Positions 42,092 through 64,000 of a stretch of DNA of 64,000 bases are shown here, piece by piece. The position numbers and the translations under genes were made by a program. The notes below the pieces were generated by a model. The model had not been told where the DNA came from. It saw nothing but the letters and a program-made list of their open reading frames with translations, and made no database searches. The stretch is from Elusimicrobiota bacterium (lineage in GTDB: Bacteria > Elusimicrobiota > Elusimicrobia > UBA1565): NCBI GenBank assembly GCA_002401485.1, contig NVTF01000002.1, positions 4,299 through 68,298 on the forward strand, in the 5' to 3' direction. The stretch's first letter is position 1, and the number at the start of each line of letters is the position of its first letter.

Positions 42092-43261
42092 ATGGAATCA
42101 CGCAGAAAACTCTCACTCTTAAATTCAGTTTTTATGACAACGACGCCGTTTTTGGCTGTCGGCCTGTCGATTTATTACCTCATCACCCAAGGCCTGCATT
42201 GGGGAGACGTCGCGCTGTTTGGGGCTATGTATATTCTCACCGGCATGGCCATTACCGCCGGGTATCATCGTTATTACTCTCACCGCGCGTATGACTGTCA
42301 TTGGGCGGTGCAGTTGTTCTATTTACTGTTTGGAGCCGCAGCGATCGAAAATTCGGCTCTGAAATGGTGCCGCGACCATCGCCTCCACCACCAAAAAGTC
42401 GACACGGATGAAGATCCCTACAACATCAAAAAGGGTTTCTTCTATGCCCACATGGGATGGATTTTTTACGAAACTCCGAAGGATCGGACTTTTGCGTGCG
42501 TCCCCGACCTCCAGCGGGACCCTCTCGTACAGTGGCAAAACAATCATTTTTTTAAAATCCTCATTGTCGTTGGTTTTGTTATGCCGACGCTCATCGGGGC
42601 CGCCTACGGGCGACCGCTTGGCGGCTTCTTATTCGGCGGCTTGGTGCGGGCGGTATTTGTCCAGCACACAACCTTTCTCATCAATTCAGCGGCCCATTAT
42701 TTTGGAACCCGCCCTTATTCCGTCAACAATACCGCACGCGACACCTGGTGGCTGGCCTTCTTCACGTACGGGGAGGGTTACCACAACTTCCACCACCGAT
42801 TCGGCGCCGACTACCGAAACGGATATAAGTGGTACCAATTCGATCCGACGAAATGGTGGATCAAGACGCTCAACGTTGTTGGGCTGTCCTGGCGGCTGAC
42901 GCGATTTCGGGCGGAACACATCCTCAAAGCCCGCATCGAAGCGGACATTCGCCGCGTCCAACTCAAAATCGCGGACGCTCCGGATGCCTTGTCCGCTCGA
43001 ATTCAAAAACGCATGGCGGACGCTCAGCTCCAACTCGAAACCGCCTATAATCGCCTCGCCGAAGCAAAAATTCGCTACCGCAAATTAAAACGCTCGGTGG
43101 TAGCAAGCTCAGAAATTGCAACTACACGGTTGGCTAACTCGCTGGAGCAGTGGAAACTTCGAAATCGACAGTATAAATTTCAGTTTCGGGCCGCCCAAGC
43201 CCGATGGGCTCTTTTGATCGCCGCCTTCAGCCGTTTTCAGCTGCAAACACCCATAACCTGA
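42092..43261 (+). CDS. Acyl-CoA/acyl-lipid delta-9 fatty-acid desaturase
   Basis: His boxes HRYYSHRAY, HRLHHQKVD and HNFHH, four TM helices, and a C-terminal helical tail. Confidence 0.85.
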   Translation: MESRRKLSLLNSVFMTTTPFLAVGLSIYYLITQGLHWGDVALFGAMYILTGMAITAGYHRYYSHRAYDCHWAVQLFYLLFGAAAIENSALKWCRDHRLHHQKVDTDEDPYNIKKGFFYAHMGWIFYETPKDRTFACVPDLQRDPLVQWQNNHFFKILIVVGFVMPTLIGAAYGRPLGGFLFGGLVRAVFVQHTTFLINSAAHYFGTRPYSVNNTARDTWWLAFFTYGEGYHNFHHRFGADYRNGYKWYQFDPTKWWIKTLNVVGLSWRLTRFRAEHILKARIEADIRRVQLKIADAPDALSARIQKRMADAQLQLETAYNRLAEAKIRYRKLKRSVVASSEIATTRLANSLEQWKLRNRQYKFQFRAAQARWALLIAAFSRFQLQTPIT

Positions 43262-43292
43262 TACCGTAATAGAACCCGCACCCAACATCAGG

Positions 43293-43325
43293 AAAACCCT
43301 TCATTAAGAAGGGTTTTTTATTTTA
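43293..43325 (+). terminator. Rho-independent terminator after the desaturase
   Basis: Stem AAAACCCTT (43293-43301) / AAGGGTTTT (43309-43317) with loop cattaag, followed by TTATTTTATT. Confidence 0.8.
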
Positions 43326-43435: not shown

Positions 43436-46400
43436 ATGCTTCGCATCACGGCCGTATTTTTCTGCGTAATCGCATCCGTCCCGATTTTTTCGGGAACGTC
43501 GACAGCGGCTACCCCAACCAGCGTTCAATTTACGACAGCAACCACCGACTCTATCGAAATAACGTGGACGCTGGAGTCCTCTGGCCAGATTCCCTTGTAC
43601 GCTTTATCAACGGTGGAGAACTTTTCCACCACCATCGCCTCCGCTACGGGGGCGGTTGGACAAGAAAACATTCTGATTCAGTCCCTCCTCAAGAACACAA
43701 CCTATTATTTCAAGGTAAAGGTTTCTACGGAAAATGACTCGACCTATACCTCGACAATTGCACTGGCAACACTCGCGGCTCCGCCCGGTGCGGCTCCGAG
43801 CGTTGTTTTATCCTCAGGCGATATTATAGTCAGCTGGACCCACGACGGAAACGCAACCGACACAGAATATTCCGGAGAACTATATGAGGACCCCGCGTTT
43901 TTAACCCAACTCGCGGTGCTGCCGTTTCAAACCGGGTCATCATTCACTGCGACCGACCTTGATCCAAATACGACCTTCTACTTTCGAGTCCGAGCCCAAA
44001 ACCGACAAGGAATCGTAACGGGTTACCGAATTCTCCCTGCGGCTCTCACCCATTCCTCCCCCGCGGCGGCCTCCCAGCCAACGAACGTTTTCGGCGCGCG
44101 CATGACGGCGAATTGGATCACCGATCTGTCTGCCAACACCCAATACAAAGCGGAACTCTCCACGGTCGCGAATTTTACCGGTTCCAACGATCAAACGACC
44201 GCCTTCATCGCCGGAGCGAATTCAAACGAATTTGTAGGACTGCTCCTCGGCACGCAATATTTCACACGGGTCAAATCCCGCGGCTTCAACCTTGTTGAAT
44301 CGGTATACACGACGCTCCCAACCACAACGACGCAGGTATTCCTCGAAACGCCGCCTCCATCCAATGTCCTCTCCTCAAGCGCCACAACAACGACGCTCGG
44401 TTATTCCTGGACGATGCAGAATTCCAACGAAGCTCCGCTGATCGCGCTGGCCGATAATTTTGATTTTACTTCGCTGGTTTCCTCGCTCACCGCAGGCGTC
44501 AATCAATCGAGCCACCAATTCACGGGCCTCGCGATTAACAACACGTATTGGTTCAAAATCAAGGTATCTACGGCAAACGATTTTTTCTACACGGTCAAAA
44601 TAGAAACCGCAACGCATGCGGCAGATCCGATCGCGTCGCTCACCACAGTGCTCTCTTCGGCAGACATCAATGTCTCATGGACCGCCAACGGCAATCCCCC
44701 GGACACCCTCTACGATGTATCTATTTTCGATGACGATACGTATCAGAACTCTCTCGGAAAAAGCGGATTTACAACCGTCCTAAATTCCACCATTCCCACC
44801 CTCACCCCGGCAACAACCTTCTATTTCCACGTGCAAGCGTTCAACCGCTTACTCACGCCAACAACGGCGGTCATCCTAACCGAAGCCATGACGTTCGCCG
44901 AACCGCCGACGGCTTCCCAACCGCAGGATGTGCTCGATACGAAGTTTCGAACACACTGGAATCCCGGCCTCAACCCTCCGGGGGTCTTGTTCCGCGCCCA
45001 GCTTTCCACGGCAACAAATTTCACAGGGAGTCTCGATTTGACCTCCGGATTTGTACCCGATATTTCCAGTTTCACATTCTCGGGCTTAGCGCTGGGCAAG
45101 ACCTACTATACCCGGGTGCAGGCGAGAAACGCCGCGGGACAAACGACTGGTTTCGTTAATTTGCCTTCCACCGAAACCCTGAACCAGCCCGCCGCGCTCC
45201 CGCCGACCAACATTGTCGCCGGAACCGCAACATTAACCGCAATCGACCTTGATTGGAAGCTGGGCAGCCCGGGTCAAACTCCGCTGTTTGCCATCTCGGA
45301 GTCTTCCGATTTTGTCACGACCGTCTCCTCCATTACCGGCGGCATCGGACAGGAGATAGTCTCACTGGGCGGACTGAACGCGAACACGACGTATTATTTC
45401 AAGATCAAGGTATCGACCGTCAACGATATTTTTTACAGCGCGACGCTTACAACGGCAACCTTGGCGGCGGCCCCGCTCTCAGCGGCGCCCGTCGTTATTT
45501 CCACATCGGAAATCCAAGCGAACTGGACGCATGGCGTCAATCCTACCGACACGCAATATTCAGGCGAATACGCGCGCATCGCCGATTTCACTTCCCTCGA
45601 TGGATCCAGTGATTTTTCCGAGGGGACCTCTCTCAATGTCCCGGGACTGAAATCCAACACGACCTACTACTTTCGCATCCGCGCCCGAAATCGATTCGAA
45701 ATTCAAACCACAACAACAATTCTCCCCACGGCCGTGACGCTGGCGGAGGACGCAACGGCGGCGCTGTTGATCGACATCTTTAATACGAATTTCAAGCTGG
45801 AATGGTCCACAGGCACCAACCCGATCGGCACTGAATTTTTTGCCGAAACATCAACCGCAACCGATTTCAGCGGCTCCGCCGATATCAATTCCTCTTGGCT
45901 GCCCAATATTTCGAGCTTTACGTTTGTCGGCCTGACTCCGGACACAACCTACTATGCGCACGTTAAATCGCGCAACGTTGCGGCCGTTGAAACCGCGTTT
46001 ACGACAACACTCTCCACACTCACAACAACAATCGAAAACATTCCCGCTCCTACCAATATCCTCGCCGGCGATGTTTCCACAGCGACCCTGCGGATCAATT
46101 GGACTCTCGGCTCTCCCGGCCAAGCACCGCTTTACGCCTTCTCCACGAATTCGAATTTTACAACGACATTCTCTTCAGAAACCGGGACCGTGGGGCAAAA
46201 CACCAAGACGGTTCTTGGTTTAACCCCCAATGCGACCTACTACTTCAAAATTAAAGTTTCCACCGCCAATGACTTCCTCTTTTCCCCGACCTTTTCAACA
46301 GCAACACACGCGCAGGTCCCGGTCAGTTCTCCCACGCTCGTCACGTCATCGGGAAGCCTGCTGGGCCAATGGGGCGTCGATCAAAACCCGCCCGGAACCG

Positions 46401-49400
46401 AATACAGCGGAGAAATTTCAGACACATCCAACTTTGCGTCAATTCTGGCGGAAAGCCCCTTCGGTACCGACACCTTCGTCAGCATCACCAATCTCAATGC
46501 CAACACAACCTTTTATCTTCGCGTACGCTCTCGGAACTGGAACGGGGTTGAGTCATCCACGATCGCTCTGCCGACGGCAGTCACCCTTGCCGCCCGTCCC
46601 ACCTCGGGGCTGCCGACCGATGTACTCGACACGCGCCTGAGCGCCCATTGGAACGTCGGCAGCAATCCCGTGGGAACCGAATTCTCGGTTGAGATCGCAT
46701 CCGACCCGACCTTCACAGACGATTTCCAAGCCTCCGCGTTTCAGGCCGATATGACAAGTTTCACCTTCCTAAACCTGTCGCTTGACACGACGTATTACAC
46801 CCGTGTCCGCGGACGCAACCACGCAGGAGTGCCCAGTTCCTATTTTTCGTTGGTCTCCACAAAAACACTCCCGTTCGAGGCCGTGCTGCCGCCCATCAAC
46901 ATCCAAATCGCGACGATCACAACAACCGATCTCGGCTATTCCTGGACCTTGCTTTCCGCCGCCCAATCGCCCTTCTATGTCTTTGGAGAAGACCCGTTGT
47001 ATGCAGTCACCGTGACTTCGGAGTCTGGGGGTGTTAACCAAAGCAGCCATGTGGTATCAGGGCTCTCCATCAACACGTCCTACTTCTTCCAAGTCAAGGT
47101 CGCAACCGCACCCGATTTTTTCTACTCGATCACCTTCGAAACAGCAACCCATGCCAATCCCCCAACATCCCAGCCCAGCGTCGTGCTCTCGAGTGCAAAC
47201 ATCCAGGTCGACTGGAACGTCAATGGGAACCCGCCCGGGACTCAATTTCTCGCAGAGCTCTCATTTAACGCGGGGTTTGGCGGCATCGCGAGTGCCAGCC
47301 CATGGACCGGCGCGTCACAGTTTATCGCTCCCGGCCTGACGCCCAACACCACGTATTACATACGCGTTCGCGGGAGAAACAGTTCAAACGTTCATACCGC
47401 GACCGTTCCCTTAAACGCGCAGTGTACGTTCGCAGACGTCATAGCACCGTCACTTGCACCCGCACCCGGGCCGACCCAAATGGGTCTCACATGGGTGCGT
47501 GCGGCCAATCCGCTCGGAACCGAGTTCAAGTCGGAGATCGACGATGACCCGGCGTTTGGAACTCCTGATGCAACGACCTGGTTGACCGGAACTGCAACGA
47601 CTTTCTTCAATCTAACCCCGAACACGACCTATTATTCCCGCGTGCGGGCTCGCAATTGCCAAAACGTCGAAACCGCCAACATCATCCTCGCAACGACCGC
47701 GACCAGCGCGGCCATCCCCTCCGCCGACACGGCTTCCGGAATCACGATCAGCACCATCGTTGCGAATTGGGGAAGCAATGGGAATTCGGCCGGAACCGTG
47801 TACTCCGCGGAAATCGCGAGTGAAAACACGTTCGTCGTTAACTACGCATCCATCCCGTTCGCCGCTGTGTTTGCCTCAACCTTCACCGGGCTCGCAGCGA
47901 ACACGACGTATTACATACGGGTACGGGCCCGTAATTGGGCGGGATTAGAAACAGCCACCCAATTGCTGGCCCAAGAGTCCACCGACGCCGAGGGTCCCGG
48001 TTCCCAATCACCCACCGTGGTCACCAATGATCAAGTGACGCTCAACTGGTCCGCAGGCGGCAACCCCGCCGGAACTTTCTTCCAAACCGAGCGTTCGACC
48101 GACTCCAACTTTAACGGAACCTTATTCGCGTCTCCATTTTTGACGTCGACAAGCCATGCCTTTGGATCACTCATCGGAGGGACAACCTATTACTTCCGCG
48201 TGAAGGCGCGCAGTCACAACGGAAACGACACAGCCTGGGTCGCGCTTCCCTCAACCATGACCCTCCCCAGCCCTCCGACCTCGCAAATCCCGCAAAACGT
48301 TTTTGGATCACGATTGCGCGCCCATTGGGGAGTTCTTACCAATGCCATTGGGAGCCAATTCTTTGCCGCACTCTCAACAGGGACAAACTACACGGGGAGT
48401 CTCGACCAAAACACAGGATGGGTCACAGACCTCTCGAGCAACACCTTCCTGAGTCTCACCCTGGACACAACGTATTACACGCGGGTTAAGGCGAGAAACG
48501 CCAAGCTGGAGGAAAGCTCATTTACAAACCTGCCCTCCACACTGACCTTGAACTTTTTAGAGACGCTCCCACCGACATCGGTGAGCATCGATACCGTAAC
48601 CACGACATCGCTGGATGCCTCCTGGATTCTGGAAAACCCCACGATGGCGGCGCATTACAAGTTCTCAACACTCCTCAATTTCTCGACGATTGCATCGAGT
48701 GAGACGTTAGGGGTCGCCGTTTCCAGCATCAGCCTATCCCCCATCGCGCCAAACACAACCTTCTATTTTAAGATCAAGATATCCACCGCCGACGATCTCT
48801 TCTTCAGCGACGTCTTGTCGACTGCTACCGCTGTTCTCGATCCCGGAGTGCTCACCCCGGTGACGCTTTCCTCCGCGGATGTCGCAGCCCTCTGGGAGCA
48901 CACGGGAAATCCGGCGGGCACTGAATTCTTAGCGGAGCGGGCGACCAATCCGGGATTCTCGACCGGTCTTGCCAACGGAGGGTGGACGACCCTGAACGGA
49001 TCCACCTTCACAAGCCTAACGCCCAATACCACCTATTACCTCCGCGTTCGTTCGCGCGGACACAATTCGGCGGTCAAACCCCCCGTGGTACTGGGATCGA
49101 CGATCACACGCGCCGAAGTTCCGTCTAGTCCAACCAGCACTCTCCTGTCCTCCGCCGGAATTTTCGTTAGTTATTCGACCGGGTCCAATTCAGGGCCGAC
49201 GGAATTCCTGATTGAAATCTCAAGCGTCGCGGGATTTACACCTCTCACCGCAACAGCCGGATGGGCAACCATCCGCGAATCAACCTTTACGGGACTCATT
49301 CCAAATACGCTTTATTATGCGCGTGCGCAGGCGCGCAACGCGGCAAAAGAAGTCACTGCATTTGCAACGGTTCCCTCAACCCGCACATTCGCCCAACCTC

Positions 49401-58400: not shown

Positions 58401-59077
58401 TCGCACCGTCAGATCCCGAGATATTGAGTGTAACCGTCAACATTCCCTCCAATTCGCTTCCGGAAGGAACGACTGTTGCGATCAACACCGGGGTCGCGTT
58501 CTTCCTGCCCCCGCCGATTTCCAATCAAATGTCGCTGACGCCGCTCGGAGGCGTCGGCATCGAAATCGACACCGGCGGCGTACAGCCGGTCAACCCGGTT
58601 ACAATCACGATGATCTACGACCCGGCCGCGCTGCCGTCGGGAAAAAATCCACGGTCTCTCATTATGGCGCGCTACGACGTCGCGTCCGCGCAATGGACCC
58701 TAATGCCCACAACCGTCGATACAATTGCCCGTTCCGTCACGGGCATTACCGATCATTTCTCTTTGTTCGCTCCGTTCTTTGCGACGGCCTCAACGGCATT
58801 CGACGCGATTCAAATCTTCCCTGTTCCGTGGGAACCCGGAGCGAACACTCAGTTTGACGCGCAGGTTCTAACCTTCTCCAACCTGCCGGGTGGGACCGAG
58901 GTTGAGATTTACTCCATTCTGGGCGAACGCCTGCGCCGAATGACCGCTCCGCCCAACGGCATCGTCCAATGGGACGGGCGAAACGGCAGCGGCACCCGTG
59001 CCGCTTCGGGCACCTATCTCGTGCTCTTCAAAAAGGATGGAGATCGTACGACGCGACGCGTGGTGGTAATCCGATGA
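43436..59077 (+). CDS. Giant (5,213-aa) secreted protein: ~50 tandem fibronectin-III-like repeats with a T9SS-type C-terminal sorting domain
   Basis: Single uninterrupted 15,642-nt ORF with a signal peptide (MLRITAVFFCVIASVPIFSGTSTA). Roughly 95-aa units recur with the [NT]TTYY[FLST][RK][VI][RK] hallmark of FN3 F-G strands. The C-terminal ~90 aa (IQIFPVPWEPG...VEIYSILGERL...WDGRNGSGTRAASGTYLVLFKKDGDRTTRRVVVIR) fits the Por_Secre_tail / FlgD-Ig-like CTD pattern. Confidence 0.85.
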   Translation: MLRITAVFFCVIASVPIFSGTSTAATPTSVQFTTATTDSIEITWTLESSGQIPLYALSTVENFSTTIASATGAVGQENILIQSLLKNTTYYFKVKVSTENDSTYTSTIALATLAAPPGAAPSVVLSSGDIIVSWTHDGNATDTEYSGELYEDPAFLTQLAVLPFQTGSSFTATDLDPNTTFYFRVRAQNRQGIVTGYRILPAALTHSSPAAASQPTNVFGARMTANWITDLSANTQYKAELSTVANFTGSNDQTTAFIAGANSNEFVGLLLGTQYFTRVKSRGFNLVESVYTTLPTTTTQVFLETPPPSNVLSSSATTTTLGYSWTMQNSNEAPLIALADNFDFTSLVSSLTAGVNQSSHQFTGLAINNTYWFKIKVSTANDFFYTVKIETATHAADPIASLTTVLSSADINVSWTANGNPPDTLYDVSIFDDDTYQNSLGKSGFTTVLNSTIPTLTPATTFYFHVQAFNRLLTPTTAVILTEAMTFAEPPTASQPQDVLDTKFRTHWNPGLNPPGVLFRAQLSTATNFTGSLDLTSGFVPDISSFTFSGLALGKTYYTRVQARNAAGQTTGFVNLPSTETLNQPAALPPTNIVAGTATLTAIDLDWKLGSPGQTPLFAISESSDFVTTVSSITGGIGQEIVSLGGLNANTTYYFKIKVSTVNDIFYSATLTTATLAAAPLSAAPVVISTSEIQANWTHGVNPTDTQYSGEYARIADFTSLDGSSDFSEGTSLNVPGLKSNTTYYFRIRARNRFEIQTTTTILPTAVTLAEDATAALLIDIFNTNFKLEWSTGTNPIGTEFFAETSTATDFSGSADINSSWLPNISSFTFVGLTPDTTYYAHVKSRNVAAVETAFTTTLSTLTTTIENIPAPTNILAGDVSTATLRINWTLGSPGQAPLYAFSTNSNFTTTFSSETGTVGQNTKTVLGLTPNATYYFKIKVSTANDFLFSPTFSTATHAQVPVSSPTLVTSSGSLLGQWGVDQNPPGTEYSGEISDTSNFASILAESPFGTDTFVSITNLNANTTFYLRVRSRNWNGVESSTIALPTAVTLAARPTSGLPTDVLDTRLSAHWNVGSNPVGTEFSVEIASDPTFTDDFQASAFQADMTSFTFLNLSLDTTYYTRVRGRNHAGVPSSYFSLVSTKTLPFEAVLPPINIQIATITTTDLGYSWTLLSAAQSPFYVFGEDPLYAVTVTSESGGVNQSSHVVSGLSINTSYFFQVKVATAPDFFYSITFETATHANPPTSQPSVVLSSANIQVDWNVNGNPPGTQFLAELSFNAGFGGIASASPWTGASQFIAPGLTPNTTYYIRVRGRNSSNVHTATVPLNAQCTFADVIAPSLAPAPGPTQMGLTWVRAANPLGTEFKSEIDDDPAFGTPDATTWLTGTATTFFNLTPNTTYYSRVRARNCQNVETANIILATTATSAAIPSADTASGITISTIVANWGSNGNSAGTVYSAEIASENTFVVNYASIPFAAVFASTFTGLAANTTYYIRVRARNWAGLETATQLLAQESTDAEGPGSQSPTVVTNDQVTLNWSAGGNPAGTFFQTERSTDSNFNGTLFASPFLTSTSHAFGSLIGGTTYYFRVKARSHNGNDTAWVALPSTMTLPSPPTSQIPQNVFGSRLRAHWGVLTNAIGSQFFAALSTGTNYTGSLDQNTGWVTDLSSNTFLSLTLDTTYYTRVKARNAKLEESSFTNLPSTLTLNFLETLPPTSVSIDTVTTTSLDASWILENPTMAAHYKFSTLLNFSTIASSETLGVAVSSISLSPIAPNTTFYFKIKISTADDLFFSDVLSTATAVLDPGVLTPVTLSSADVAALWEHTGNPAGTEFLAERATNPGFSTGLANGGWTTLNGSTFTSLTPNTTYYLRVRSRGHNSAVKPPVVLGSTITRAEVPSSPTSTLLSSAGIFVSYSTGSNSGPTEFLIEISSVAGFTPLTATAGWATIRESTFTGLIPNTLYYARAQARNAAKEVTAFATVPSTRTFAQPPSALGPVPVFGRTLTVNWLGGNNPSGTEFFAEVSTATGFTGSLDQDSAWITSLSHTFTGLALNTTYYSRVRARNGDFVATPFTALFSTMTLPFEDTLPPNNILYSTASPTSVDVSWSLLVAFQAPFYALSTDPDFTTTASSQAGIPGQESVSIGGLTVNTTYYFKVKVSTAQDLFYSMAIATATEAVTPIVGPGVTLSSSNISLTWGGSANPAGTEFLAEAAVNSGFSAGLASGPWSAGFSSTFSALSVNTTYYLRVRARNHYGHPTPADVAAPIATDAEPPTAGAPTSITSATFAANWGAASNPAGTLFLVERATDTAFGGALVNSGWSTALASTFTALIPNTTHFLRVRARSNNGNQTANTSLPTVLTLAEPPASAPFTNVFDIQLTAHWGLGANPSGTEFFTELSSAADYSGSADQNTGWAANLSSNTFFGLAKATTYYLRTKARNAAFIETSFVPIGSTVTLTFDALLPPTQIVFTTATTTTLDATWTLENASQSPLFALSSVDDFATTISSLTGSVAQSSATFNALAINTTYYFKIKVSTAIDLFYSSPISTATLAAVPISSPSVIISSVSLAAHWLLGANPTGTQFLAEAALDTLFSSGLSSNAWTSNLVSSFTALSVNATYYLRVGARNWSGIKTATVSLPTRATNAGLPGTGTPVVLSSNDARGEWTAGVNPAGTLFQASLSTDSAFSPASTAAWTPLTNSTFTGLSVNTTYYWRVLARSHNGSQTANVSLTTTPTLADIPVAGTPAAISSTNVRADWNSGNNPAGTEFRAELATDSLFTTNTASASWTILTDSTFTALTPNTTYYTRVRARNHAGVETSTVALTEVPTNAAIPISLTPVILSTADFSLSWTANNNPAGTLFLAEMGTDPDISAGVQTSGWINATFTTFTALSPNTTFYARVRARNHAGVVTTTDAVRTAVSAAKDPVSIDPVVLSSADISARWDTDGNPSNTEFFAEAALNSGFSVGLMNNGWLTGSASTFTTLTPNTSYYLRVKARSHAGVETGFTTLPTTMTFSDPPTSQPLTRVFGSKLTTHWGSASNPPGTRFSAEVSTATDFTGSNDQTTAFIAELSYTFVGLILDTTYYSRVRAENLRGALSAYTALPTTTTLASETLPPTNISFDTATATSLDASWILDNPTQTPFYALDVSSAFAAPASSVTGSVGQSSASIGGLIPNTTYWFVIKVSTALDIFYSIPLASPTLAAAPTSGASGAVSDGSILAVWNANANPAGTEFFAERALDAAFTASPTNSGWITNTSFIFSPLSANTTQYIRVRARNLNRVETSTVSLGAVVTLAKLPSAPASVGLSSADVFVSWSTGTNPTGTQFLVEISTHAGFATLADFAGWTDFRESTFTGRTPNTLHYSRVKARNAVNIETSFVAIPSTWTFAEQPSTGAPTNILGEAITTTWGIGGNPAGTEFFVEISTAVSFLGNADQNSGWVTTSSHTFNGLILATTYYSRVKARNGVLQETAFTILAATLTLQSQSALPPTNIQFTTASVVSLDLSWNMRNPTEAPLYALSLFPNFITTISSQTGTLGQENVTLTGLGANTTYYFKIKVSTSQDQFYSSVISTATQAKDPGAPAAVAISSNDLQLDWNANGNPAATEFLAEAALDSGFTVGLTSGPWAAGTSSTFTSLSVNTTYFTRVRARNHNHHHTDLVSASAAATLAEPPSTSAIVFASTWITVNWILGANPAGTEFRAEASTDAVFAAAFSQSGWVTGFSETFTSLIPNTTYYLRLRARSHSGTATTASQFPNVHTLAFTPGSLSPDRKFATRITNQWLRLSNPLVTEFFTEISTAADYSGAADQNSNWVANSSHTFTGLIVNTTYYSRVKARNGLGVETAITMLPTTTTLLTETLPPDGIRFDTATVSTLDVSWQLDNPTQTPFYALSLVSNFATTISSTIGALAQSSASIGGLSLNTTYWFTIKVSTAIDLFYSNPIATPTLAGVAASSPSVTLTSTSLQAHWLINGNPGGTEFLAEAALDPSYTSGVASGTWATPLVSTFTALSVNATYYLRVRARNWAGIETSTLTLPETVTHAALPSTAATAALSTGSLAATWTANSNPAGTLYIAETSTSAAYDTLATTGWNAVASATFTALLPNATYYLRVRARNHAGVETVNVNFDPRATDARDPLTGTPVTLSSADLRAVWGADTNPASTHYFSQISLDAAFTTGLASAGWVTGTTSTFSALVPNTSYYLRVKARSHGGVESGYTTLPTTMTFARPPASLIGEQVFATQLTARWDVLNNPVGTEFLAQLSTAANFSGTLLPSGWTTNSSHTFTGLSNTTTYYSRVQARNAHLAVSAFTSLPTTVTLTAEALPPTNILFATSTSTTLDVSWTLDNASQAAFFALGISSNFAAPISSATGNVNQSTASFGALTANTTYWFRIKVSTASDLFYSVPIATMTRASAPLAGTPVALSSVALRAGWTANGNPAGTQFLPEAALNTVFTVGVVSGTWTTGLTQDFSGLSSNATYYLRVRGRNGHHIETATTTLTATATHAGAPGSAAASQQSSTTVRVNWTANGNLSPTSYVAEIATSAAFASLTASSTTFETFADFAGLDTSKLYFSRVLAIGHGGTNSVNTSLPDAVTLATAPTGGSIISVFGQSVTLDWNVNGNNVGTEFQLEHSTAANFTGTLVKSLWITQSSHTFAALQAVTTYYFRVKARNPGLVETNFLVLPSTLTLTPPNAPTAVAFTNATIASLDLAWTHGNLGITPLYALSTRDDFATTVSSQTGVVNQETVTLSGLSANTTYYFKVKFSTETDDGYSFPIATATLAAVPSAPSQTAVTTHSVSASWSGGSNGPNTVYIWELDDDPGFGSVDASSSTLTTAATIAGLFGNTRYFGRVRAVNHQGNPSENSSLGAFATLARAPIAVASPFVTVTFTSVTVQWTAFPSSPSSTSAQGFVVEASTASDFSGTISSNSILALTDRLALAGLADLPTLFFRIGSLNPDLTPNYLSLGSTLPLTAATTGQMFMNAEPFSVTLAPSDPEILSVTVNIPSNSLPEGTTVAINTGVAFFLPPPISNQMSLTPLGGVGIEIDTGGVQPVNPVTITMIYDPAALPSGKNPRSLIMARYDVASAQWTLMPTTVDTIARSVTGITDHFSLFAPFFATASTAFDAIQIFPVPWEPGANTQFDAQVLTFSNLPGGTEVEIYSILGERLRRMTAPPNGIVQWDGRNGSGTRAASGTYLVLFKKDGDRTTRRVVVIR
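43500..58300 (+). repeat. Coding tandem-repeat array: 13 super-repeats of A-B(n)-C FN3-like units (~845 to ~1,950 nt each)
   Basis: A-type units (...TTYYFKIKVSTAxDxFYS) begin near 43711, 44551, 45400, 46245, 47089, 48770, 49890, 51010, 52960, 54080, 55200, 56590 and 57700. Between them lie 1-5 B-type units (...TTYYLRVRARNHAGVET) and one C-type unit (...TTYYSRVKARN). Nucleotide identity between equivalent units is roughly 75-85%. Confidence 0.8.
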
Positions 59078-60108
59078 GGATACTCAGCGCGCTTCTTACT
59101 GTACTGCTCGCGAGTCAGCCCGCGTCCGCCCTCAGCAGCAACCGCGGGGGAGCGGCGATGGAATTCCTTCGCATCGGCGCAGGAGCGCGGGCGCTTGGAA
59201 TGGGAGATGCGTTTGCGCCCATCGCCGAGGGCGCCGACAGCGTTTATTGGAACCCGGCAGGCATGGTCCAAAGTCGGCATCTCGAAATCTCGGCGACGCA
59301 TATCGATATGCTCGAGTTTTTCAGTCATGACAACTTCGCCGTTATCAAACCCTTCCCCAAATCCCGCAACGCAATTGGATTCTCCGCGACCTTCTTCTCG
59401 CAGGACAGCCTCAATCGCGTGTCCAACACAAACCAACAACTCGGCTCTTTTAGACCCCACAGCGAGTCATTTTCCTTTGCGGTGGCTCATGCCTTCGGCA
59501 AAGGCGATACACTGGCGGACAGCGGAGGTCTCTACGATTTCAAAGACAGGTCCATTTATGAGATCAACCGACGCGGAGACCGGAGCCGTCACTTCCGCGC
59601 CGGCAATGTAATGGTCGGAGCCGCCGTAAAACACGTACGGGAAACTCTCAATACACGAACGGCGACCGCGTTGGCCATCGACTTCGGAGTACTCGCACGT
59701 CCGGAGTCGATCCCGGAATTATCAATTTCCGGAACGATTCGAAATTTCGGATCGCGACCGAAATTCATAAACGAACTGCAGGATCTACCGACGGAATTCT
59801 CGGCTGGAGCCGCGTACAACATTTCGAGCCAACGCCGACGCTTCCTAACCGCCGTGGAAGCCATCGTCCCAATCTACGGAACACCGTACGGAAAATTAGG
59901 ATTCGAATATTCGCTCGCGATTTCCGGTTCCAGCTTCATTTCTTTCCGAGGCGGCTATAAATCGTTGTCGGCGCCGACGCTGGGAATCGCCAGCGGCGTC
60001 ACAGGAGGCATCGGGTTCGGGTTCGGTCGTTTTACGTTCGATTTTGGATTCCAGCCGATGGGGGATCTTGGGGAGGCTTATCGTGGCAGCGCCGGTTTCA
60101 GATTCTAA
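59074..60108 (+). CDS. PorV/PorQ-family-like outer-membrane beta-barrel protein (putative T9SS cargo shuttle)
   Basis: ATG at 59074 overlaps the giant gene's stop (ATGA). Signal peptide MRILSALLTVLLASQPASA; the N-terminal AAMEFLRIGAGARALGMGDAFAPIAEGADSVYWNPAGM matches the hallmark of PorV/PorQ-family proteins; C-terminal ...GSAGFRF ends in Phe as in OM barrels. The 58969 start given in the ORF table lies inside the giant gene. Confidence 0.6.
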   Translation: MRILSALLTVLLASQPASALSSNRGGAAMEFLRIGAGARALGMGDAFAPIAEGADSVYWNPAGMVQSRHLEISATHIDMLEFFSHDNFAVIKPFPKSRNAIGFSATFFSQDSLNRVSNTNQQLGSFRPHSESFSFAVAHAFGKGDTLADSGGLYDFKDRSIYEINRRGDRSRHFRAGNVMVGAAVKHVRETLNTRTATALAIDFGVLARPESIPELSISGTIRNFGSRPKFINELQDLPTEFSAGAAYNISSQRRRFLTAVEAIVPIYGTPYGKLGFEYSLAISGSSFISFRGGYKSLSAPTLGIASGVTGGIGFGFGRFTFDFGFQPMGDLGEAYRGSAGFRF

Positions 60109-60110
60109 CT

Positions 60111-63100
60111 CATGACTTCTCGCTTCCCTTATTTTCGATTTCTACTCGCGCTGCTGCTCTTGGGGGCAGGATTTGCGCCGCGCGTTGGCGCGGTCGAGAA
60201 ACTTGATGGCCGCCTGCGGCTTCTCCAACAGCAATCGAATTCGGGCGGTGGGTATCGCACGGCTGACGTTGACGACACCGGACCGATTATTTTGGTCCCG
60301 ATCTTCATCGAAATCAATTCCTGGGCCACGCGGGATATTTTGGTGGCTCGGTATCCTGAAATACGGTTCTCAGGGCAACACGGCAATATCCTGACGGGGC
60401 GCTGCCCCATCTCGTCGCTGGCAGCCTTAGCCGCCGACCCCGATGTACTGCGCGCCCAAGCCGGCACCCAGCAGCGCCCCCTGCTCAACGTCGTAAAGTC
60501 GACGATCATAACCTCCGGAAACTTTCTCGGAATTGTCGATGAGGGGTCTCCGAACTTCGGAACCCGGGATGGGAGCAACGTCATTTTCGGCATCGTTGAC
60601 AGCGGCGTCGACTACACACACGAGGATTTCATTACCGGCGCGGGATTTACCCGCATCCTCTTTCTCTGGGATCAAACCGATGAAATCGGGGCTCCGGGGA
60701 CCTTCCATCCCGATGGGTTTACAGTCGGGACCGAGTGGACCGAGGCTCAAATCAACGATGAAATTGACGGCTCTCCCGCCGGCAACGTGCGCCAAACCGA
60801 TACCGTCGGCCACGGCACACACGTCCTCGGCATCGCCGCGGGCGACGGAAGCGCAACGGACGGCGACGTAGCGGCCAATACATTTGTCGGAATTGCACCC
60901 GACGCCGACATCATTGTGGTCAAAACCACATTATTTAATACCGACATTTTGGACGGCGTGCGCTACATTGTCGACAAAGCGGCCTCCCTCGGTAAACGTG
61001 CGGTGATCAATCTCAGCCTCGGGTCCCACTCGGGTCCGCACGACGGCACGAGTTCGTATGAAACAGGCATCGCACTGGTCGCCTCCACCGTTCCCGTTGT
61101 CATCGCGATGGGCAACGAGGCCGCAAGTGCGATTCACGCGGCCGCAACCGTCGCCCCGGCCGGTGAAGAAACATTTCAGTTTACGTTGGCCGGATCTCCG
61201 TCTTCCGTTGAGACGGAGTTCTGGGTGCCCTCAGGAGACCTGTATACGGTTACGGTGACAACCGCGGCAGGAGGCTCGGGTGCTGTATCGGCAACTCCGG
61301 GTCAGGATATCTCGAGCACCATCGGAGCCCTGAATGTCGCGATTTTTAACTCACCGACGAGCCACCCGGCGGGAGACCGCCAAATCCTCATCCGACTGAC
61401 CCAGAGCCCGAGCATAAATGCAACCAACTTTTTTGTTCGCATGCAGCGCAGCGCCAGCGGCGGATCCGGCCGAGTCGACGCCTGGATTGTAAACTTCGCG
61501 AACGTCTCCTGGGTTAATTTCATCGAATCAAGCCGTACGATCAGCGTTCCCGCTACCGCCAACAATGTTATTGCAGTTGGGTCCTATTGTTCCAAACGGA
61601 CCTGGACCGCCGATGACAATCTCGTCTACAACGACACGTCCTGCACCGCCGGTTTGCTGGGCGATATTTCCAATTCCAGCTCGCTCGGTCCTACACGTGA
61701 CGGACGCCTCAAACCCGATGTTGCCGCACCCGGCCAACGGGTAGCGTCCGCCCAATCCGTGAGCAACACCGGTGAACCTATCGCCAATATCCAAAAGGAC
61801 GGAAAACACCGGCTGATTAGCGGGACGAGCATGGCGAGCCCGGTCATCGCCGGGGCCGCGCTGCTTGCTCTCGAATCGGATCCGGACCTGACGGTTGAGG
61901 AATTTAGAACCTTGATTACCAGCCACGCTCGCGTCGATGCGAAGGTGGCGGCCCACGGGGCCACTCCCAACACCTTATGGGGGTACGGCAAGGCCCGGAT
62001 ATTTGGATGCGGGGACGTCATCGTCTCCTCCGCCGCATCCGTTGTCTCCGATGTACTGGGAACCTCTTCAATTTCATGGAACTGGTCCCGGGTGGCCGGC
62101 GCGCAGGACTACAATCTCTATTTTGCCGATACACTGGCGCTGATCACGAACGTATCCGCTACAACCTATCTTCAGACCTCCCTCCAAGGAAATTCGACGG
62201 TCCAGTTCCTCGTGCGCGGCAACAACGCCTGCGGCGAGGGCCCCGACGGGGTTTCAGCCTCCACCTCGACCCTCTCGATTTTAACCGCCGCGCCGGTGTT
62301 CAGCGTATTCGAATCAAGCATCACGGGCGTATTTGGAGTGCTGCCGACCTCCCCCCGTTCCGCTTCCAGCTTCGGATACCAACTAGACGCCTCAACAACA
62401 GCCGATTTCTCCGCAACGATAATCACGTCCGCAACCCCCAACAATCAAAACGGATCGCTGACCGTGACGGGGTTGCTGGCGTTTACGTCGTATTACATGC
62501 GACTGGGAACTCTCAATGAAGTGGGAGGCGTTAATTTCGCGTTGCTCGGCATTCAATTTACAGAAACCCCTTTAAACCCTCCCGGCATCGCGGTTTTTAC
62601 CAACGTCACCGAGACTCAGATTGAGGCGAATTGGGTTCTCAACGGAAACCCCGCAGGCCTCGAGTATATCGCCCAAACATCGACCGCCTCTGATTTTTCG
62701 GGAACATTGCTGAGCAGCCAGACATTCGCGCTCAAGGCCCTCTTCACCGGGTTGACCGAGAATACGCAATACCACTTTCGAGTCCGCGCCACCGAAGGTC
62801 CGTTTGCCTCCCTCAATTTTGAAGAAACACTCTCCGCCGCTCCGAAGATTTCTACTCCCGCGTTTACATCCGTCAGCCGCACAAGCGTCACGGTTGCGTG
62901 GAATGATCTCATCAACCCAGCGGGAACACAGTACAGGGCTCAAATTTCTCCGGCAGCGGATTTTGCGGTTTCGGTCATCTCCTCCGACACCCTTAATCTA
63001 ACCGCGACCTTCACAGGGCTCCTCGGAAATACGACCTACTACTTACGCACGGCGTCGCTTGGCATCGGAGGCGGTCTCAGCGCGTTTGACACCATCACGG

Positions 63101-64000
63101 CAAGTCCGACACTCACCAATGCTCCAACCTCTGCGGCTCCGCCGATCACAGGGGTATTTGCCTCATCGATCACGGTGGCGTGGAATGCCCTGCCAACCAC
63201 CCCCCCGGATCAAAGTGCCGAGGGATACCGCGTCGACGCGTCCACCGCCTCGGATTTTACCGGGACCTTAACCAGCCAGTTCATTTTCTCTCCGACCGCA
63301 AACTCATTAACCGTCTCCGGGCTGCTTCAAGACACAACCTACAATTTCCGCGTCGGCGCGCTTAATTGGCAAAACATCCCGTCCTACCTTGCGCTCGGAT
63401 CGACCAAAACGGTAGGCCAGATCTTATCCTCGGGAACAGCCGTAAGCGGTCAAGCAATAACTCTCAATGTAAATCCCTCTGTCCCCGAGATTGTCACAAT
63501 TCAAGTCAAGGTACCGGCCAACACGTTCCCCGCCGGCACCGAAGTAGGGGTGAACGCGACAATCGGGACACTCCTGGCACCCCAATCAAGCCAGGGATCG
63601 GTCACCCTCCTTTCCGACCAAATCGGCGTCGATATTACCGCCTCTAACGGGAATCAACCGGTCAATCCCGTCGAAGTGCTCTTTACCTATTCCCCGGCAC
63701 AAATCCCGCCAAACATCAATCTCGATACGATCATTATCGGAAGATTGGATGGAGACAGTCCCTTGTGGACGCTGCTTCCTACGGTTCACGACCCGGTCAC
63801 AAGACAGTTCAAGACAGTCACAACTCATTTCTCTATTTTTTCGCCCTTAATCGTGACGGCATCGACCGATCTCGATGACATCCAAATATTCCCCGTGCCG
63901 TGGAAGACAGGAACCGGGGACCCCTTCTTTGATGCGTCGTTTCTCAGTTTCACCAATCTCCCTGCGGGCGGAAGAATCACCCTCTACACGATGCTCGGAG
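60111..64000 (+). CDS. Secreted subtilisin-like (S8) serine protease with FN3-like repeats and the same T9SS-type C-terminal module; 3' end truncated by window
   Basis: Frame was not flagged in the ORF table because it has no stop before the window end. Signal peptide MTSRFPYFRFLLALLLLGAGFAPRVGAV; catalytic triad GIVDSGVD (Asp), GHGTHV (His), GTSMASP (Ser); FN3-like units (NTQYHFRVRATEG, NTTYYLRTASLG, DTTYNFRVGALN); terminal ...DIQIFPVPWKTGTGDPFFDASFLSFTNLPAGGRITLYTMLG parallels the giant protein's C-terminus. Confidence 0.85.

What the first reader, a model, noticed from the sequence alone, without database searches (positions are those of the whole stretch)
43436..64000. Candidate T9SS cargo cassette: giant FN3-repeat surface protein, a translationally coupled PorV/PorQ-like barrel, and an S8 protease carrying the same C-terminal module
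Three consecutive same-strand genes. (i) A 5,213-aa secreted protein made entirely of FN3-like repeats, ending in a Por_Secre_tail-like C-terminal domain (CTD). (ii) A PorV/PorQ-like outer-membrane barrel whose ATG overlaps the giant gene's TGA (ATGA). (iii) A subtilisin with FN3-like repeats and a C-terminus that aligns with the giant protein's last ~230 aa.

In Bacteroidota T9SS, PorV binds CTD cargo and shuttles it to the sortase/attachment complex. A dedicated PorV-like gene hard-wired between two cargo genes, one of them a giant adhesin or S-layer-like fibre, would be a compact surface-display module. It would resemble adhesin plus maturation-protease pairs, but as far as I know has not been described as a genetic unit, and not in a high-GC uncultured lineage.
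Basis: partly seen in the sequence, partly recalled or inferred. Interest (0 to 1): 0.85.

Follow-up and report, generated by a model that had tools for sequence, protein, structure and literature searches.

The report
Surface proteins paired with anchor barrels
An uncultured Elusimicrobiota bacterium encodes a 5,213-residue fibre protein and a protease that each end in a probable self-cleaving joint plus a docking domain, and each is followed by its own outer-membrane barrel gene with overlapping stop and start codons; this conserved two-gene kit for displaying, and probably shedding, surface proteins resembles the Bacteroidota type IX cargo-carrier arrangement but is not the same.

Summary
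The genes are 43436-59077 (5,213 aa: 53 FN3 repeats plus a C-terminal module), 59074-60108 (344-aa barrel, ATGA overlap) and 60112 onwards (S8 subtilase, 1,346 aa, cut by the window edge).

The interpretation needs revision.
- The organism is an Elusimicrobiota MAG, not Bacteroidota.
- The unit is not one barrel between two cargos. It is a cargo-barrel pair, present twice: just past the window the S8 stop overlaps the ATG of a second barrel gene.
- Pairing is near-obligate. 32 of 33 barrel-seeded and 11 of 11 CTD-seeded relatives have an NTGA junction.
- The barrel meets only the PorV/PorQ family model. It fails the PorV, PorQ and PorV2 ortholog models. Its predicted fold is closest to PorV, then FadL.
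- The CTD has the T9SS CTD fold and is closest to PorZ, whose CTD docks on PorQ.
An H-F/L-S/T motif is present in 41 of 41 relatives, so HF|S autoproteolysis is likely.

Best reading: cognate carrier/anchor barrels hold cargos (mostly proteases on FN3 stalks) through a non-covalent joint that can release them. Whether a T9SS translocon exists in this genome could not be tested. I rate it a new variant of a known kind.

The parts
43291..43319 (+). Terminator-like hairpin after the upstream fatty-acid desaturase gene. It marks the 5' boundary of the transcription unit.
   Evidence: 12-bp stem, 5-nt loop and T-run. Four such sites were found against 1.0 expected.
43436..59077 (+). Cargo 1: a 5,213-aa secreted giant protein. 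Layout: signal peptide, 53 FN3-like domains, GAIN/ZU5-like domain, T9SS-type CTD.
   Evidence: Orthologues of 4,001-4,004 aa.
43436..43507 (+). Sec-type signal peptide (MLRITAVFFCVIASVPIFSGTSTA).
   Evidence: Read directly from the translation. No signal-peptide predictor was available.
43508..58339 (+). 53 tandem FN3-like domains of ~92 aa each. They form about 13 super-repeats, each opening with an 'A-type' unit.
   Evidence: Pfam fn3 hits. No DNA tandem repeat.
58346..58783 (+). GAIN_B/ZU5-like ('MAIN'-like) beta-sandwich domain (aa ~4971-5116).
58754..58762 (+). H5107-F5108-S5109. Putative autoproteolysis site (HF|S), in the turn before the last strand of the GAIN-like domain.
   Evidence: Motif present at -107/-108 from the C-terminus in 41 of 41 close relatives (38 HFS, 2 HLS, 1 HFT). 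H and F are invariant in A5. Its position in the model lies between strands E137-142 and E147-153. F|S cleavage was shown experimentally for MAIN domains in bioRxiv 10.64898/2026.05.12.724683.
58802..59074 (+). C-terminal sorting/docking domain. It is a T9SS type A-like, PorZ-like CTD ending ...RRVVVIR.
59074..59077 (+). ATGA stop/start overlap (translational coupling of cargo 1 and barrel 1).
   Evidence: The same NTGA junction occurs in 32 of 33 plus 11 of 11 relatives.
59074..60108 (+). Barrel 1: a 344-aa PorV/PorQ-family FadL-type outer-membrane beta-barrel with its own signal peptide.
   Evidence: NF033709 111.8 bits vs cutoff 90. AF2 pLDDT 85.7, pTM 0.82, about 14-16 strands with an N-terminal plug-like segment. 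Foldseek top hits are PorV 8gl6_F (E 3e-12) and 6h3i_F, then FadL/TodX.
60112..64000 (+). Cargo 2: S8 subtilase of 1,346 aa, with the last 50 aa lying beyond the window. Layout: signal peptide, S8 catalytic domain, FN3-like stalk, GAIN/ZU5-like domain with HFS, CTD.
60595..61842 (+). S8 catalytic motifs: VDSGVD (60595-60612), GHGTHV (60808-60825), NLSLG (61009-61023), GTSMASP (61822-61842).
   Evidence: Peptidase_S8 E 3.7e-33.
62284..63411 (+). Four FN3-like domains of the protease stalk.
   Evidence: profile built from the giant protein's repeats. Pfam fn3.
63826..63834 (+). H1239-F1240-S1241 of the protease: the same putative autoproteolysis motif (TTHFSIFSP).
63853..64000 (+). Start of the protease CTD (aa 1248-1346). 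The CTD, the stop codon and the ATGA-overlapping start of barrel 2 lie 1-152 nt past the window end.
   Evidence: Isolated CTD passes TIGR04183 at 25.8 bits. The second barrel's 5' fragment is at L001:15076-15249.

Best explanation
The locus holds two copies of a conserved two-gene surface-display module of Elusimicrobiota, one for the giant protein and one for the S8 protease.

Gene 1 of each module encodes a Sec-exported cargo. The cargo is either a 53-domain FN3 fibre or an S8 protease on an FN3 stalk. Its last ~245 aa form a fixed bipartite module: a GAIN/ZU5-like ('MAIN') beta-sandwich carrying an invariant H-F-S motif, followed by a PorZ-like T9SS-type CTD.

Gene 2 starts on the cargo's stop codon (ATGA). 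It encodes a PorV/PorQ-family, FadL-fold outer-membrane barrel.

Proposed mechanism:
- Translational coupling keeps expression of each cargo and its barrel linked, presumably near 1:1.
- Each barrel acts as the cognate carrier/anchor for the CTD of the cargo encoded just upstream. This parallels PorQ holding PorZ and PorP/SprF-like proteins holding type B CTD adhesins.
- The cargo is therefore held non-covalently on the cell surface instead of being handed to a PorU sortase.
- The GAIN-like domain cleaves itself between F and S. The ectodomain then stays attached only through the beta-sheet of that domain and can be released by force or unfolding.

Shown here: gene layout, near-obligate pairing, family and fold assignments, motif conservation.

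Inferred: CTD-barrel binding, autoproteolysis, release.

Unknown: how the cargo crosses the outer membrane, whether through a T9SS-like translocon encoded elsewhere or by another route.
For: Pairing:
- Among non-redundant close relatives found by searching with the barrel, 32 of 33 have a large same-strand upstream ORF (897-5,213 aa) whose stop overlaps the barrel start by 4 nt (26 ATGA, 6 GTGA).
- 74 of 89 upstream ORFs carry the same CTD.
- In an independent search seeded with the CTD only, 11 of 11 CTD proteins are followed by a barrel at an NTGA junction.
- Downstream genes are not conserved, so the unit is the pair.
- Pairs are inherited as units: CTD versus barrel distance correlation r=0.72, and 0 of 2,000 permutations reach it.
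- In this genome the S8 stop overlaps the start of a second barrel gene. Relatives show giant-barrel-S8-barrel.

Barrel:
- NF033709 scores 111.8 vs cutoff 90.
- The AF2 model is confident.
- The best structural matches are the T9SS carrier PorV, then FadL.

CTD:
- It passes TIGR04183 when scanned alone.
- 30 of 30 relatives match the C-terminal end of the PorZ model, best E 5e-16.
- PorZ is the only significant PDB sequence hit and shares the ...R.AVIR ending.
- PorQ is thought to collect PorZ and anchor it at the surface (PMC10947112). Type B CTD adhesins stay bound to adjacent-gene PorP/SprF carriers (PMC9143113, PMC12618676).

GAIN-like joint:
- H[FL][ST] sits at a fixed distance from the C-terminus in 41 of 41 relatives, in the turn before the last strand.
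- Bacterial MAIN domains with the same HFS motif cleave F|S and stay associated.

Cargo heads in relatives are S8, S53 (pro-kumamolisin), C1 and M10 peptidases, GH141/beta-helix enzymes, or FN3 only. This fits a generic display system.
Against: - No binding, cleavage or localisation has been measured. Every mechanistic step rests on homology or predicted fold.
- The barrel fails the PorQ, PorV and PorV2 ortholog models, and Pfam PorV scores only 14.6 bits. Functional transfer is therefore at family level only.
- TIGR04183 is met only marginally. It is missed (21.2 vs 23) when the CTD is scanned inside a 425-aa fragment.
- No T9SS core gene lies in the 64-kb window or beside the pairs examined, and none is reported for the phylum. 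The route across the outer membrane is unexplained.
- The mirror-tree correlation is expected for any two adjacent co-inherited genes.
- The second barrel in this genome is seen only as a 57-codon 5' fragment. It is broken at a GC drop at a contig end, which could be an insertion or an assembly join.
Confidence: 0.6

Rival explanations
1. Canonical T9SS cassette. One PorV-like shuttle serves both cargos, takes them from a Sov/SprA translocon to a PorU-type sortase, the CTD is cleaved, and the cargo is linked covalently to a surface glycolipid.
For: - The CTDs are T9SS type A-like by HMM and fold.
- The barrel is structurally closest to PorV.
- Distant relatives of the barrel sit next to a genuine PorU/PorU2-like sortase in a Cytophagia MAG (L077).
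- Cargo-barrel pairs also occur in phyla listed in the paragraph on organism and context as known to carry T9SS: Calditrichota, Marinimicrobia and Bacteroidota.
Against: - Each cargo has its own barrel, whereas canonical PorV serves all type A cargos (PMC12618676).
- The barrel fails the PorV equivalog model (37.7 vs 250).
- The CTD is closest to PorZ, which docks on PorQ rather than being handed to PorU.
- No PorU or other T9SS core gene lies in the window or flanks.
- The phylum is outside the clades where T9SS has been reported.
- A built-in autoproteolytic joint would be redundant if the CTD were removed and the cargo covalently attached.
Confidence: 0.12
2. Self-contained, T9SS-independent 'split autotransporter-like' system. 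The barrel is both the dedicated outer-membrane translocator and the anchor for the cargo encoded upstream, so no separate translocon is needed.
For: - Pairing is strictly 1:1 with translational coupling.
- No T9SS genes lie nearby and none is reported in the phylum.
- The order passenger, cleavable joint, C-terminal domain, then barrel mirrors a classical autotransporter cut in two. The MAIN-domain authors themselves draw the autotransporter analogy.
Against: - FadL/PorV-type barrels of about 14 strands with an N-terminal plug are not known to translocate proteins.
- In the solved T9SS complexes PorV binds the CTD by its extracellular loops inside the SprA pore and does not conduct it (PMC10994853).
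- Homologous pairs exist in T9SS-bearing phyla.
- Threading 53 FN3 domains through such a barrel has no precedent.
Confidence: 0.15
3. The barrel is an ordinary FadL-type channel for hydrophobic or peptide substrates. It is linked to the cargo only metabolically, for example to take up products released by surface hydrolases, and it does not bind the CTD.
For: - FadL, TodX and TbuX are strong structural matches.
- Some homologues carry the Treponema FadL-like family PF03687.
- Many cargos are proteases or glycan-active enzymes.
Against: - Coupling is to the CTD module, not to any enzyme class. It holds for a pure FN3 fibre with no catalytic head.
- PorV chains outrank FadL in the fold search.
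- NCBIfam places the protein in the PorV/PorQ family above its curated cutoff.
- CTD and barrel sequences diverge in parallel.
Confidence: 0.05
4. Assembly or annotation artefact. The giant ORF or the gene order results from mis-assembled repeats.
For: Metagenome-derived contig. Highly repetitive protein. One clear anomaly at the ENA contig end.
Against: - Three assemblies agree to within 2-5 mismatches across the locus and junctions.
- There are no DNA-level tandem repeats, and the repeats are only ~30% identical at protein level.
- Synteny is conserved in other samples.
Confidence: 0.01

Closest known systems
PorQ-PorZ sub-complex of the Porphyromonas gingivalis T9SS attachment complex
   Different: The barrel fails the PorQ equivalog cutoff (55 vs 220). 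PorQ-PorZ is a single machine component per cell that delivers A-LPS. Here the pair is a multi-copy module carrying varied cargos, with translational coupling, a GAIN-like joint, and a different phylum.
Type B CTD cargo with cognate PorP/SprF-like carriers (for example SprB-SprF in Flavobacterium johnsoniae)
   Same: A giant repetitive adhesin or other cargo is genetically linked to a dedicated outer-membrane barrel. The barrel is required for the cargo's secretion and keeps it anchored. There are several specific pairs per genome (PMC12618676, PMC9143113).
   Different: The CTD here is type A/PorZ-like, not type B: TIGR04131 gave no match in any C-terminal fragment scanned. The barrel gives no PorP/SprF hit. 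There is a 4-nt overlap instead of mere linkage, and a GAIN-like domain is present.
PorV, the general carrier of type A CTD substrates (SprA-PorV-CTD structures 6H3I, 8GL6)
   Same: PorV is the best structural match of the barrel (TM 0.66, E 3e-12). The CTD fold matches substrate CTDs solved in complex with PorV. The basic residue near the CTD's C-terminus is conserved.
   Different: One PorV serves all type A cargos and hands them to PorU. Here there is one barrel per cargo, and the PorV equivalog model is failed (37.7 vs 250).
MAIN (microbial GAIN-like) autoproteolytic domains, e.g. Bacillus subtilis YfkN (Brogan & Rudner, bioRxiv 2026)
   Same: Same domain order: signal peptide, adhesion/enzyme ectodomain, GAIN_B-like sandwich with an HFS motif, cell-surface anchor. 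Large proteins with FN3 and hydrolase heads. Cleavage is predicted in the turn before the last strand.
   Different: Described anchors are sortase signals, cell-wall-binding domains or SLH domains, mostly in monoderms. The paper's main text mentions no T9SS, no partner barrel and no Elusimicrobiota, and only a handful of ZU5+FlgD_ig architectures appear in its tables. Here the anchor is a CTD plus a dedicated outer-membrane barrel.
porU-porV (and NCBIfam 'PorU2-PorV2') gene pairs
   Same: A CTD-bearing protein is encoded directly upstream of a PorV-family barrel. One such pair (L077, Cytophagia MAG) was recovered among distant homologues.
   Different: The upstream protein there is the C25-type sortase, with an 82-nt gap between the genes. 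Here the upstream proteins are cargos with no PorU domain, and the start and stop codons overlap.
Classical autotransporters and two-partner secretion (type V)
   Same: A passenger with a dedicated barrel, adjacent or fused coding, and frequent proteolytic release of the passenger with non-covalent retention.
   Different: Different barrel families (12-strand AT or Omp85, versus FadL/PorV type). The recognition element here is a folded C-terminal Ig-like domain. Translocation by the barrel is not supported.

Membership tests
T9SS type A C-terminal sorting domain (TIGR04183 / Por_Secre_tail) | HMM score at or above the curated cutoff (23 bits) | tested here: met
   The last 100 aa of the giant protein score 25.1 and of the S8 25.8. 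26 of 30 relatives hit at E<0.01. The result is marginal: 21.2 bits when scanned inside a 425-aa fragment, and Pfam FlgD_ig scores 22.7 vs 27.
T9SS type A C-terminal sorting domain (TIGR04183 / Por_Secre_tail) | Seven-stranded Ig-like beta-sandwich at the extreme C-terminus of a Sec-exported protein | tested here: met
T9SS type A C-terminal sorting domain (TIGR04183 / Por_Secre_tail) | Genome encodes the T9SS core (SprA/Sov, PorK/L/M/N or GldK/L/M/N, PorT, PorU) | not testable with these tools
   Only 64 kb plus flanks of related loci could be read, and none holds a core gene. No query sequence for core genes was available. The literature reports no T9SS in Elusimicrobia, and TXSScan found none outside Bacteroidetes (PMC4793230).
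T9SS type A C-terminal sorting domain (TIGR04183 / Por_Secre_tail) | CTD removed by PorU and cargo attached to A-LPS or released | not testable with these tools
   Needs proteomics. The PorZ-like character of the CTD argues for retention.
PorV (NF033710), PorQ (NF033711) and PorV2 (NF052325) orthologues | Equivalog HMM score above cutoff | tested here: not met
   PorV 37.7 vs 250; PorQ 55.1 vs 220; PorV2 50.6 vs 325.
PorV/PorQ family (NF033709) | Subfamily HMM score above cutoff (90 bits) | tested here: met
   111.8 bits. The second-barrel orthologue in L006 scores 114.8, and distant relatives score 94-212.
PorV/PorQ family (NF033709) | FadL-type outer-membrane beta-barrel with an N-terminal plug segment | tested here: met
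   AF2 pLDDT 85.7, pTM 0.82, about 14-16 strands. Foldseek: PorV 8gl6_F E 3e-12 and 6h3i_F, then FadL, TbuX and TodX. The exact strand number was not counted from coordinates.
PorV/PorQ family (NF033709) | Binds the CTD of a secreted partner | not testable with these tools
   Supported only indirectly, by near-obligate adjacency and co-divergence.
PorP/SprF family (TIGR03519 / PF11751) | HMM match of the barrel; type B CTD (TIGR04131) on the cargo | tested here: not met
   The window barrel gives no PorP/SprF hit. A distant relative scores 20.9 vs 90.55. TIGR04131 gives only a spurious 17-bit N-terminal match.
GAIN/MAIN autoproteolytic domain | GAIN_B/ZU5-like beta-sandwich fold | tested here: met
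GAIN/MAIN autoproteolytic domain | Conserved H-x-S/T motif in the beta-turn preceding the last strand | tested here: met
   HFS at giant aa 5107-5109 and S8 aa 1239-1241. 41 of 41 close relatives have it at -107/-108. It lies between the last two strands of the domain in the model. Residue-level superposition on a GAIN cleavage site was not available.
GAIN/MAIN autoproteolytic domain | Domain lies between the ectodomain and the surface anchor | tested here: met
   Order is FN3 array, GAIN-like domain, CTD in both cargos and all relatives.
GAIN/MAIN autoproteolytic domain | Autoproteolysis with the fragments remaining associated | not testable with these tools
   Needs expression of the domain with and without S5109A, plus Edman sequencing or mass spectrometry.
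Subtilase (Peptidase_S8, PF00082) | HMM above cutoff and intact Asp/His/Ser triad | tested here: met
   115.5 bits vs 21.8. The VDSGVD, GHGTHV and GTSMASP motifs are present.
Fibronectin type III repeats (PF00041) | HMM match; tandem ~90-aa beta-sandwich units | tested here: met
   Pfam fn3 hits. A self-derived profile finds 53 units in the giant protein and 4 in the S8.

The most novel reading that the evidence does not exclude
These Elusimicrobiota lack a T9SS translocon. On this reading the [cargo - GAIN-like HF|S joint - CTD] + [PorV/PorQ-like barrel] pair is a free-standing outer-membrane display and release system. It would be a diderm counterpart of sortase-anchored MAIN proteins, possibly resembling the ancestral carrier module from which T9SS attachment components (PorV, PorQ, PorP) were recruited. 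The barrel would suffice to dock the cargo and perhaps help export it, and mechanical force would shed the proteases or the fibre.
Probability: 0.25. Interest if true: 0.85.

Novelty: new variant of a known kind. Interest (0 to 1): 0.66.

Why it matters
1. It separates 'T9SS-type CTD plus PorV-family barrel' from Bacteroidota. It shows a one-cargo-one-barrel logic for type A/PorZ-like CTDs, which so far are said to share a single PorV carrier.

2. It gives the newly described bacterial GAIN-like (MAIN) domain a diderm context. The anchor here is an outer-membrane barrel rather than peptidoglycan. The autotransporter analogy drawn by the MAIN authors therefore has a concrete Gram-negative counterpart that can be tested.

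3. Pairing is near-obligate and the module is only two genes. Questions that are hard to answer in the 20-component T9SS become directly testable by co-expression: what determines CTD-carrier specificity, whether a carrier can work without SprA, and whether surface enzymes are shed on demand.

4. It suggests how uncultured groundwater and sediment Elusimicrobiota deploy extracellular proteases (S8, S53, C1, M10) on long FN3 stalks.

Tried and rejected
- DNA tandem-repeat origin of the giant ORF: TRF found nothing.
- T9SS core genes in the window: Pfam and neighbour annotation of ~40 genes found none.
- A conserved third gene downstream of the pair: downstream ORFs cluster only within small clades. 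Those scanned are unrelated (S13 carboxypeptidase, PurD, PPIase-like) or have no Pfam hit.
- A T2SS link: secretin, GspE or GspF genes lie near pairs in only 3 contigs. I treat this as coincidence.
- S8 as a dedicated maturation protease of the giant protein: protease+barrel pairs occur without a giant neighbour, and other protease classes take the same place.
- 'The protease lacks its own barrel in this genome': I held this view first. It was overturned by translating from the ATGA at the S8 stop.
- A broad alignment (A1, A3) could not be used for collection scans because it had no sufficiently conserved stretch. Narrower alignments worked.
- Searching with the 250-aa C-terminal module found only 9 homologues because of the word prefilter.
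- A profile search of PDB sequences did not find GAIN or ZU5 by sequence. That similarity is structural only.
- Literature searches for Elusimicrobia + T9SS and for PorV2/PorU2 gave nothing relevant.

Full report
OBSERVATION

The three genes exist as described. The ORF 43436-59077 (+) is uninterrupted and encodes 5,213 aa. The next gene starts at 59074, with its ATG overlapping the giant gene's TGA (ATGA), and ends at 60108, giving 344 aa. A third gene starts at 60112 and runs off the window. An ENA assembly of the same sample (L001) shows it is 1,346 aa and ends 152 nt past position 64000.

ENA and Logan assemblies agree with the window to within 2-5 mismatches across the locus. ENA, Logan and JGI assemblies are all identical to the window at the barrel-S8 junction. 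A terminator-like hairpin at 43291-43319 separates the cassette from the upstream desaturase gene.

The giant protein has a signal-peptide-like N-terminus and 53 consecutive FN3-like domains at aa 25-4968. These average 30% pairwise identity and are arranged in about 13 super-repeats. There is no DNA-level tandem repeat.

The third protein is an S8 subtilase with intact Asp/His/Ser motifs and four or more FN3-like domains. Its C-terminal ~360 aa align with the end of the giant protein at 41% identity, E 3e-87.

ORGANISM AND CONTEXT

The barrel protein is identical to an NCBI entry from an 'Elusimicrobia bacterium' MAG. All homologues above ~37% identity come from Elusimicrobiota MAGs. The remaining 43 kb of the window encode housekeeping and lipid- or envelope-related genes: LysRS, PheA, aminotransferases, an M16 peptidase, a phosphate porin, PMT_2 and a desaturase. 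None is a T9SS core gene.

T9SS is described in the literature as specific to Bacteroidota or the FCB (Fibrobacterota-Chlorobiota-Bacteroidota) superphylum. TXSScan found it in no other clade (PMC4793230). No paper in the library links it with Elusimicrobia.

THE CONSERVED UNIT IS A PAIR, AND IT IS PRESENT TWICE

Searching one genome per species with a barrel alignment returned 80 loci. I called ORFs in them and searched with profiles of the barrel and of the CTD.
- In the close family, 32 of 33 non-redundant barrels with readable upstream sequence are preceded by a large same-strand ORF (897-5,213 aa). Its stop codon overlaps the barrel start by 4 nt (26 ATGA, 6 GTGA).
- 74 of 89 upstream ORFs end in the same CTD.
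- That search was seeded on the barrel, so I repeated it seeded on the CTD alone in metagenome contigs. All 11 CTD proteins found are followed by a barrel at an NTGA junction.
- Genes downstream of the barrel are not conserved.

In the nearest relatives the order is giant FN3 protein (4,001-4,004 aa), barrel, S8 (1,337-1,347 aa), second barrel. In this genome the S8 stop also overlaps an ATG. The ORF that follows begins MKRLLALFLSMLCASPADAFLNNVGGASAQFLRIGVGTRAAGLGEAYGPIAEGPDA, which is the family's conserved N-terminus. It breaks off after 57 codons at an abrupt GC drop, into a ParE/RelE-like fragment at the contig end.

Pairs are inherited as units. CTD and barrel distances correlate at r=0.72, and the giant-associated and S8-associated barrels of one genome are only 47% identical.

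Cargo heads in relatives are S8, S53 (pro-kumamolisin), C1 and M10 peptidases, a GH141/beta-helix enzyme, or FN3 only.

More distant barrels (23-30% identity) are also mostly preceded by CTD proteins. Their MAGs are labelled Calditrichota, Marinimicrobia, Bacteroidota, Eisenbacteria and others. One of them is a genuine PorU/PorU2-like sortase with a PorV2-like barrel.

The wider barrel family is large: 1,735 50%-identity clusters at E<=1e-30. The close subfamily is only about a dozen clusters.

WHAT THE PARTS ARE

Barrel.
- It passes the NCBIfam PorV/PorQ family model (111.8 vs 90).
- It fails the ortholog models for PorQ (55 vs 220), PorV2 (51 vs 325) and PorV (38 vs 250). Pfam PorV is sub-threshold.
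- The AF2 model is confident (pLDDT 85.7, pTM 0.82).
- Its best PDB matches are the PorV chains of the SprA-PorV complexes (E 3e-12, TM 0.66), followed by FadL, TodX and TbuX.

CTD.
- Scanned alone, both CTDs pass TIGR04183 narrowly.
- All 30 relatives tested match the C-terminal end of the PorZ model better than the generic model.
- PorZ is the only PDB sequence hit and shares the terminal ...R.xVIR.
- The predicted fold superposes on solved T9SS CTDs.

- The ~145 aa between the last FN3 and the CTD have no Pfam match.
- Both folds are known for autoproteolysis at an H-x-S/T or HFS motif.
- The domain carries HFS at aa 5107-5109, in the turn before its last strand.
- The motif sits at -107/-108 from the C-terminus in 41 of 41 close relatives, and in several more distant Elusimicrobiota subfamilies.
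- A May 2026 preprint shows that bacterial 'MAIN' domains of this fold cleave between F and S of HFS and that the fragments stay associated. They lie between ectodomains and sortase, SLH or cell-wall anchors. The authors propose that they allow force-triggered release.
- That paper's main text does not mention T9SS, partner barrels or Elusimicrobiota.

MECHANISM

Established T9SS work shows the following.
- PorV binds type A CTDs by its extracellular loops and carries them away from SprA (PMC10994853).
- PorQ is thought to collect PorZ and anchor it at the surface (PMC10947112).
- Type B CTD adhesins such as SprB remain bound to PorP/SprF-like carriers encoded next to them (PMC9143113, PMC12618676).

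By homology and gene logic, I propose that each barrel here is the cognate carrier/anchor of the cargo encoded just upstream. Translational coupling would keep their expression linked. The GAIN-like domain would convert the covalent tether into a non-covalent, releasable one. The result would be proteases on FN3 stalks, and a 53-FN3 fibre, displayed on the cell and able to be shed.

The layout, the pairing, the family and fold assignments and the motif conservation are shown. Binding, cleavage and release are inferred. The route across the outer membrane is unknown. Confidence is about 0.6.

RIVALS

- The canonical reading (shared PorV, PorU sortase) is disfavoured. Pairing is 1:1, the PorV ortholog test fails, the CTD is PorZ-like, no PorU is nearby, and the phylum is outside the known range (about 0.12).
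- A T9SS-independent system in which the barrel is also the translocator cannot be excluded. It is attractive given the phylum. However, FadL/PorV barrels are not known to conduct proteins, and homologous pairs occur in T9SS-bearing phyla (about 0.15).
- A purely metabolic FadL role (about 0.05) and an assembly artefact (about 0.01) are unlikely.

NOVELTY

Each component belongs to a known kind. Adjacent cargo/carrier genes are known for type B CTDs. I found no description of the combination seen here:
- a type A/PorZ-like CTD with its own translationally coupled PorV/PorQ-family barrel;
- a GAIN-like HFS joint between cargo and CTD;
- multiple paralogous pairs dominated by proteases;
- a lineage outside the FCB group.

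I rate it a new variant of a known kind. The rating would rise if the genomes prove to lack a T9SS translocon, which could not be tested with the sequence available here.

Noticed in passing
L001:15076-15442 (1-1,442 nt past the window end): The second barrel gene is cut after 57 codons. GC falls from ~0.6 to ~0.3, and the remaining sequence encodes a ParE/RelE-like toxin C-terminus up to the contig end. This is either a mobile toxin-antitoxin insertion into barrel 2 or a chimeric contig end.
   Followed up: partly
window 13151-14119 (+): A 322-aa ORF with a strong Caleosin match (PF05042, E 5.5e-39). This is a family of plant and fungal lipid-body Ca-binding proteins and is unusual in bacteria. 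It overlaps the end of the pheA-like gene by 4 nt.
   Followed up: no
window 31835-32605 (-), 40170-41816 (-), 42092-43261 (+): Fatty-acid hydroxylase, PMT_2-type glycosyltransferase and fatty-acid desaturase genes cluster just upstream of the cassette. They might relate to envelope lipid or glycan modification.
   Followed up: no
L077:4939-11011 (Cytophagia MAG): A PorU/PorU2-like sortase (NF033707, 368 bits) with a CTD, followed after 82 nt by a barrel scoring best on the NCBIfam 'PorV2' model. It is a second PorU-PorV-like pair, for which I found no publication.
   Followed up: partly
L044, L046, L047, L048, L049, L057 (MAGs labelled Clostridia, Elusimicrobia or 'bacterium'): A conserved triad: an ~830-aa S8 protease with a CTD but no HFS motif, a PorV/PorQ-family barrel (NF033709, 212 bits in L046), and an overlapping ~500-aa protein with no Pfam match. 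In L048 a secretin gene lies directly upstream.
   Followed up: partly
L063:4761-15706 and L065:9068-16652: Two or three barrel genes or fragments lie in tandem. They are followed, with a 4-nt overlap, by giant ORFs (>2,761 and >1,902 aa). This is the reverse order (barrel, then giant protein), in MAGs labelled Clostridia and Dehalococcoidales.
   Followed up: no
L051:3749-12526 and L069:3674-12551 (Calditrichota): A four-gene block: a ~940-aa ORF whose N-terminus looks like a CarboxypepD_reg/TonB-dependent-receptor protein (not scanned), a ~1,100-aa CTD protein, a PorV/PorQ-family barrel (178 bits) and a ~500-aa PPIase-like protein.
   Followed up: no
L008:13683-21032 (Elusimicrobiota GCA_043819795.1): A complete-looking T2SS cluster (gspC/D/E/F/G/H) lies 4 kb downstream of an M10/CARDB/FN3 cargo-barrel pair. 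The same 75-kb contig carries a second pair (L012) 20 kb away.
   Followed up: partly
window 43508-58339: The 53 FN3 units are not random variants. About 13 super-repeats each open with one conserved subtype (LPPTNI...YYFKIKVST) followed by 1-6 units of other subtypes. This suggests growth by duplication of multi-domain blocks.
   Followed up: partly
L058, L055 (distant pairs): Small (~295-aa) CTD proteins upstream of barrels carry DFS or SFS where the close family has HFS. The eukaryotic FIIND/ZU5 cleavage motif is SF|S. This could be a variant autoproteolytic site or a dead one.
   Followed up: no
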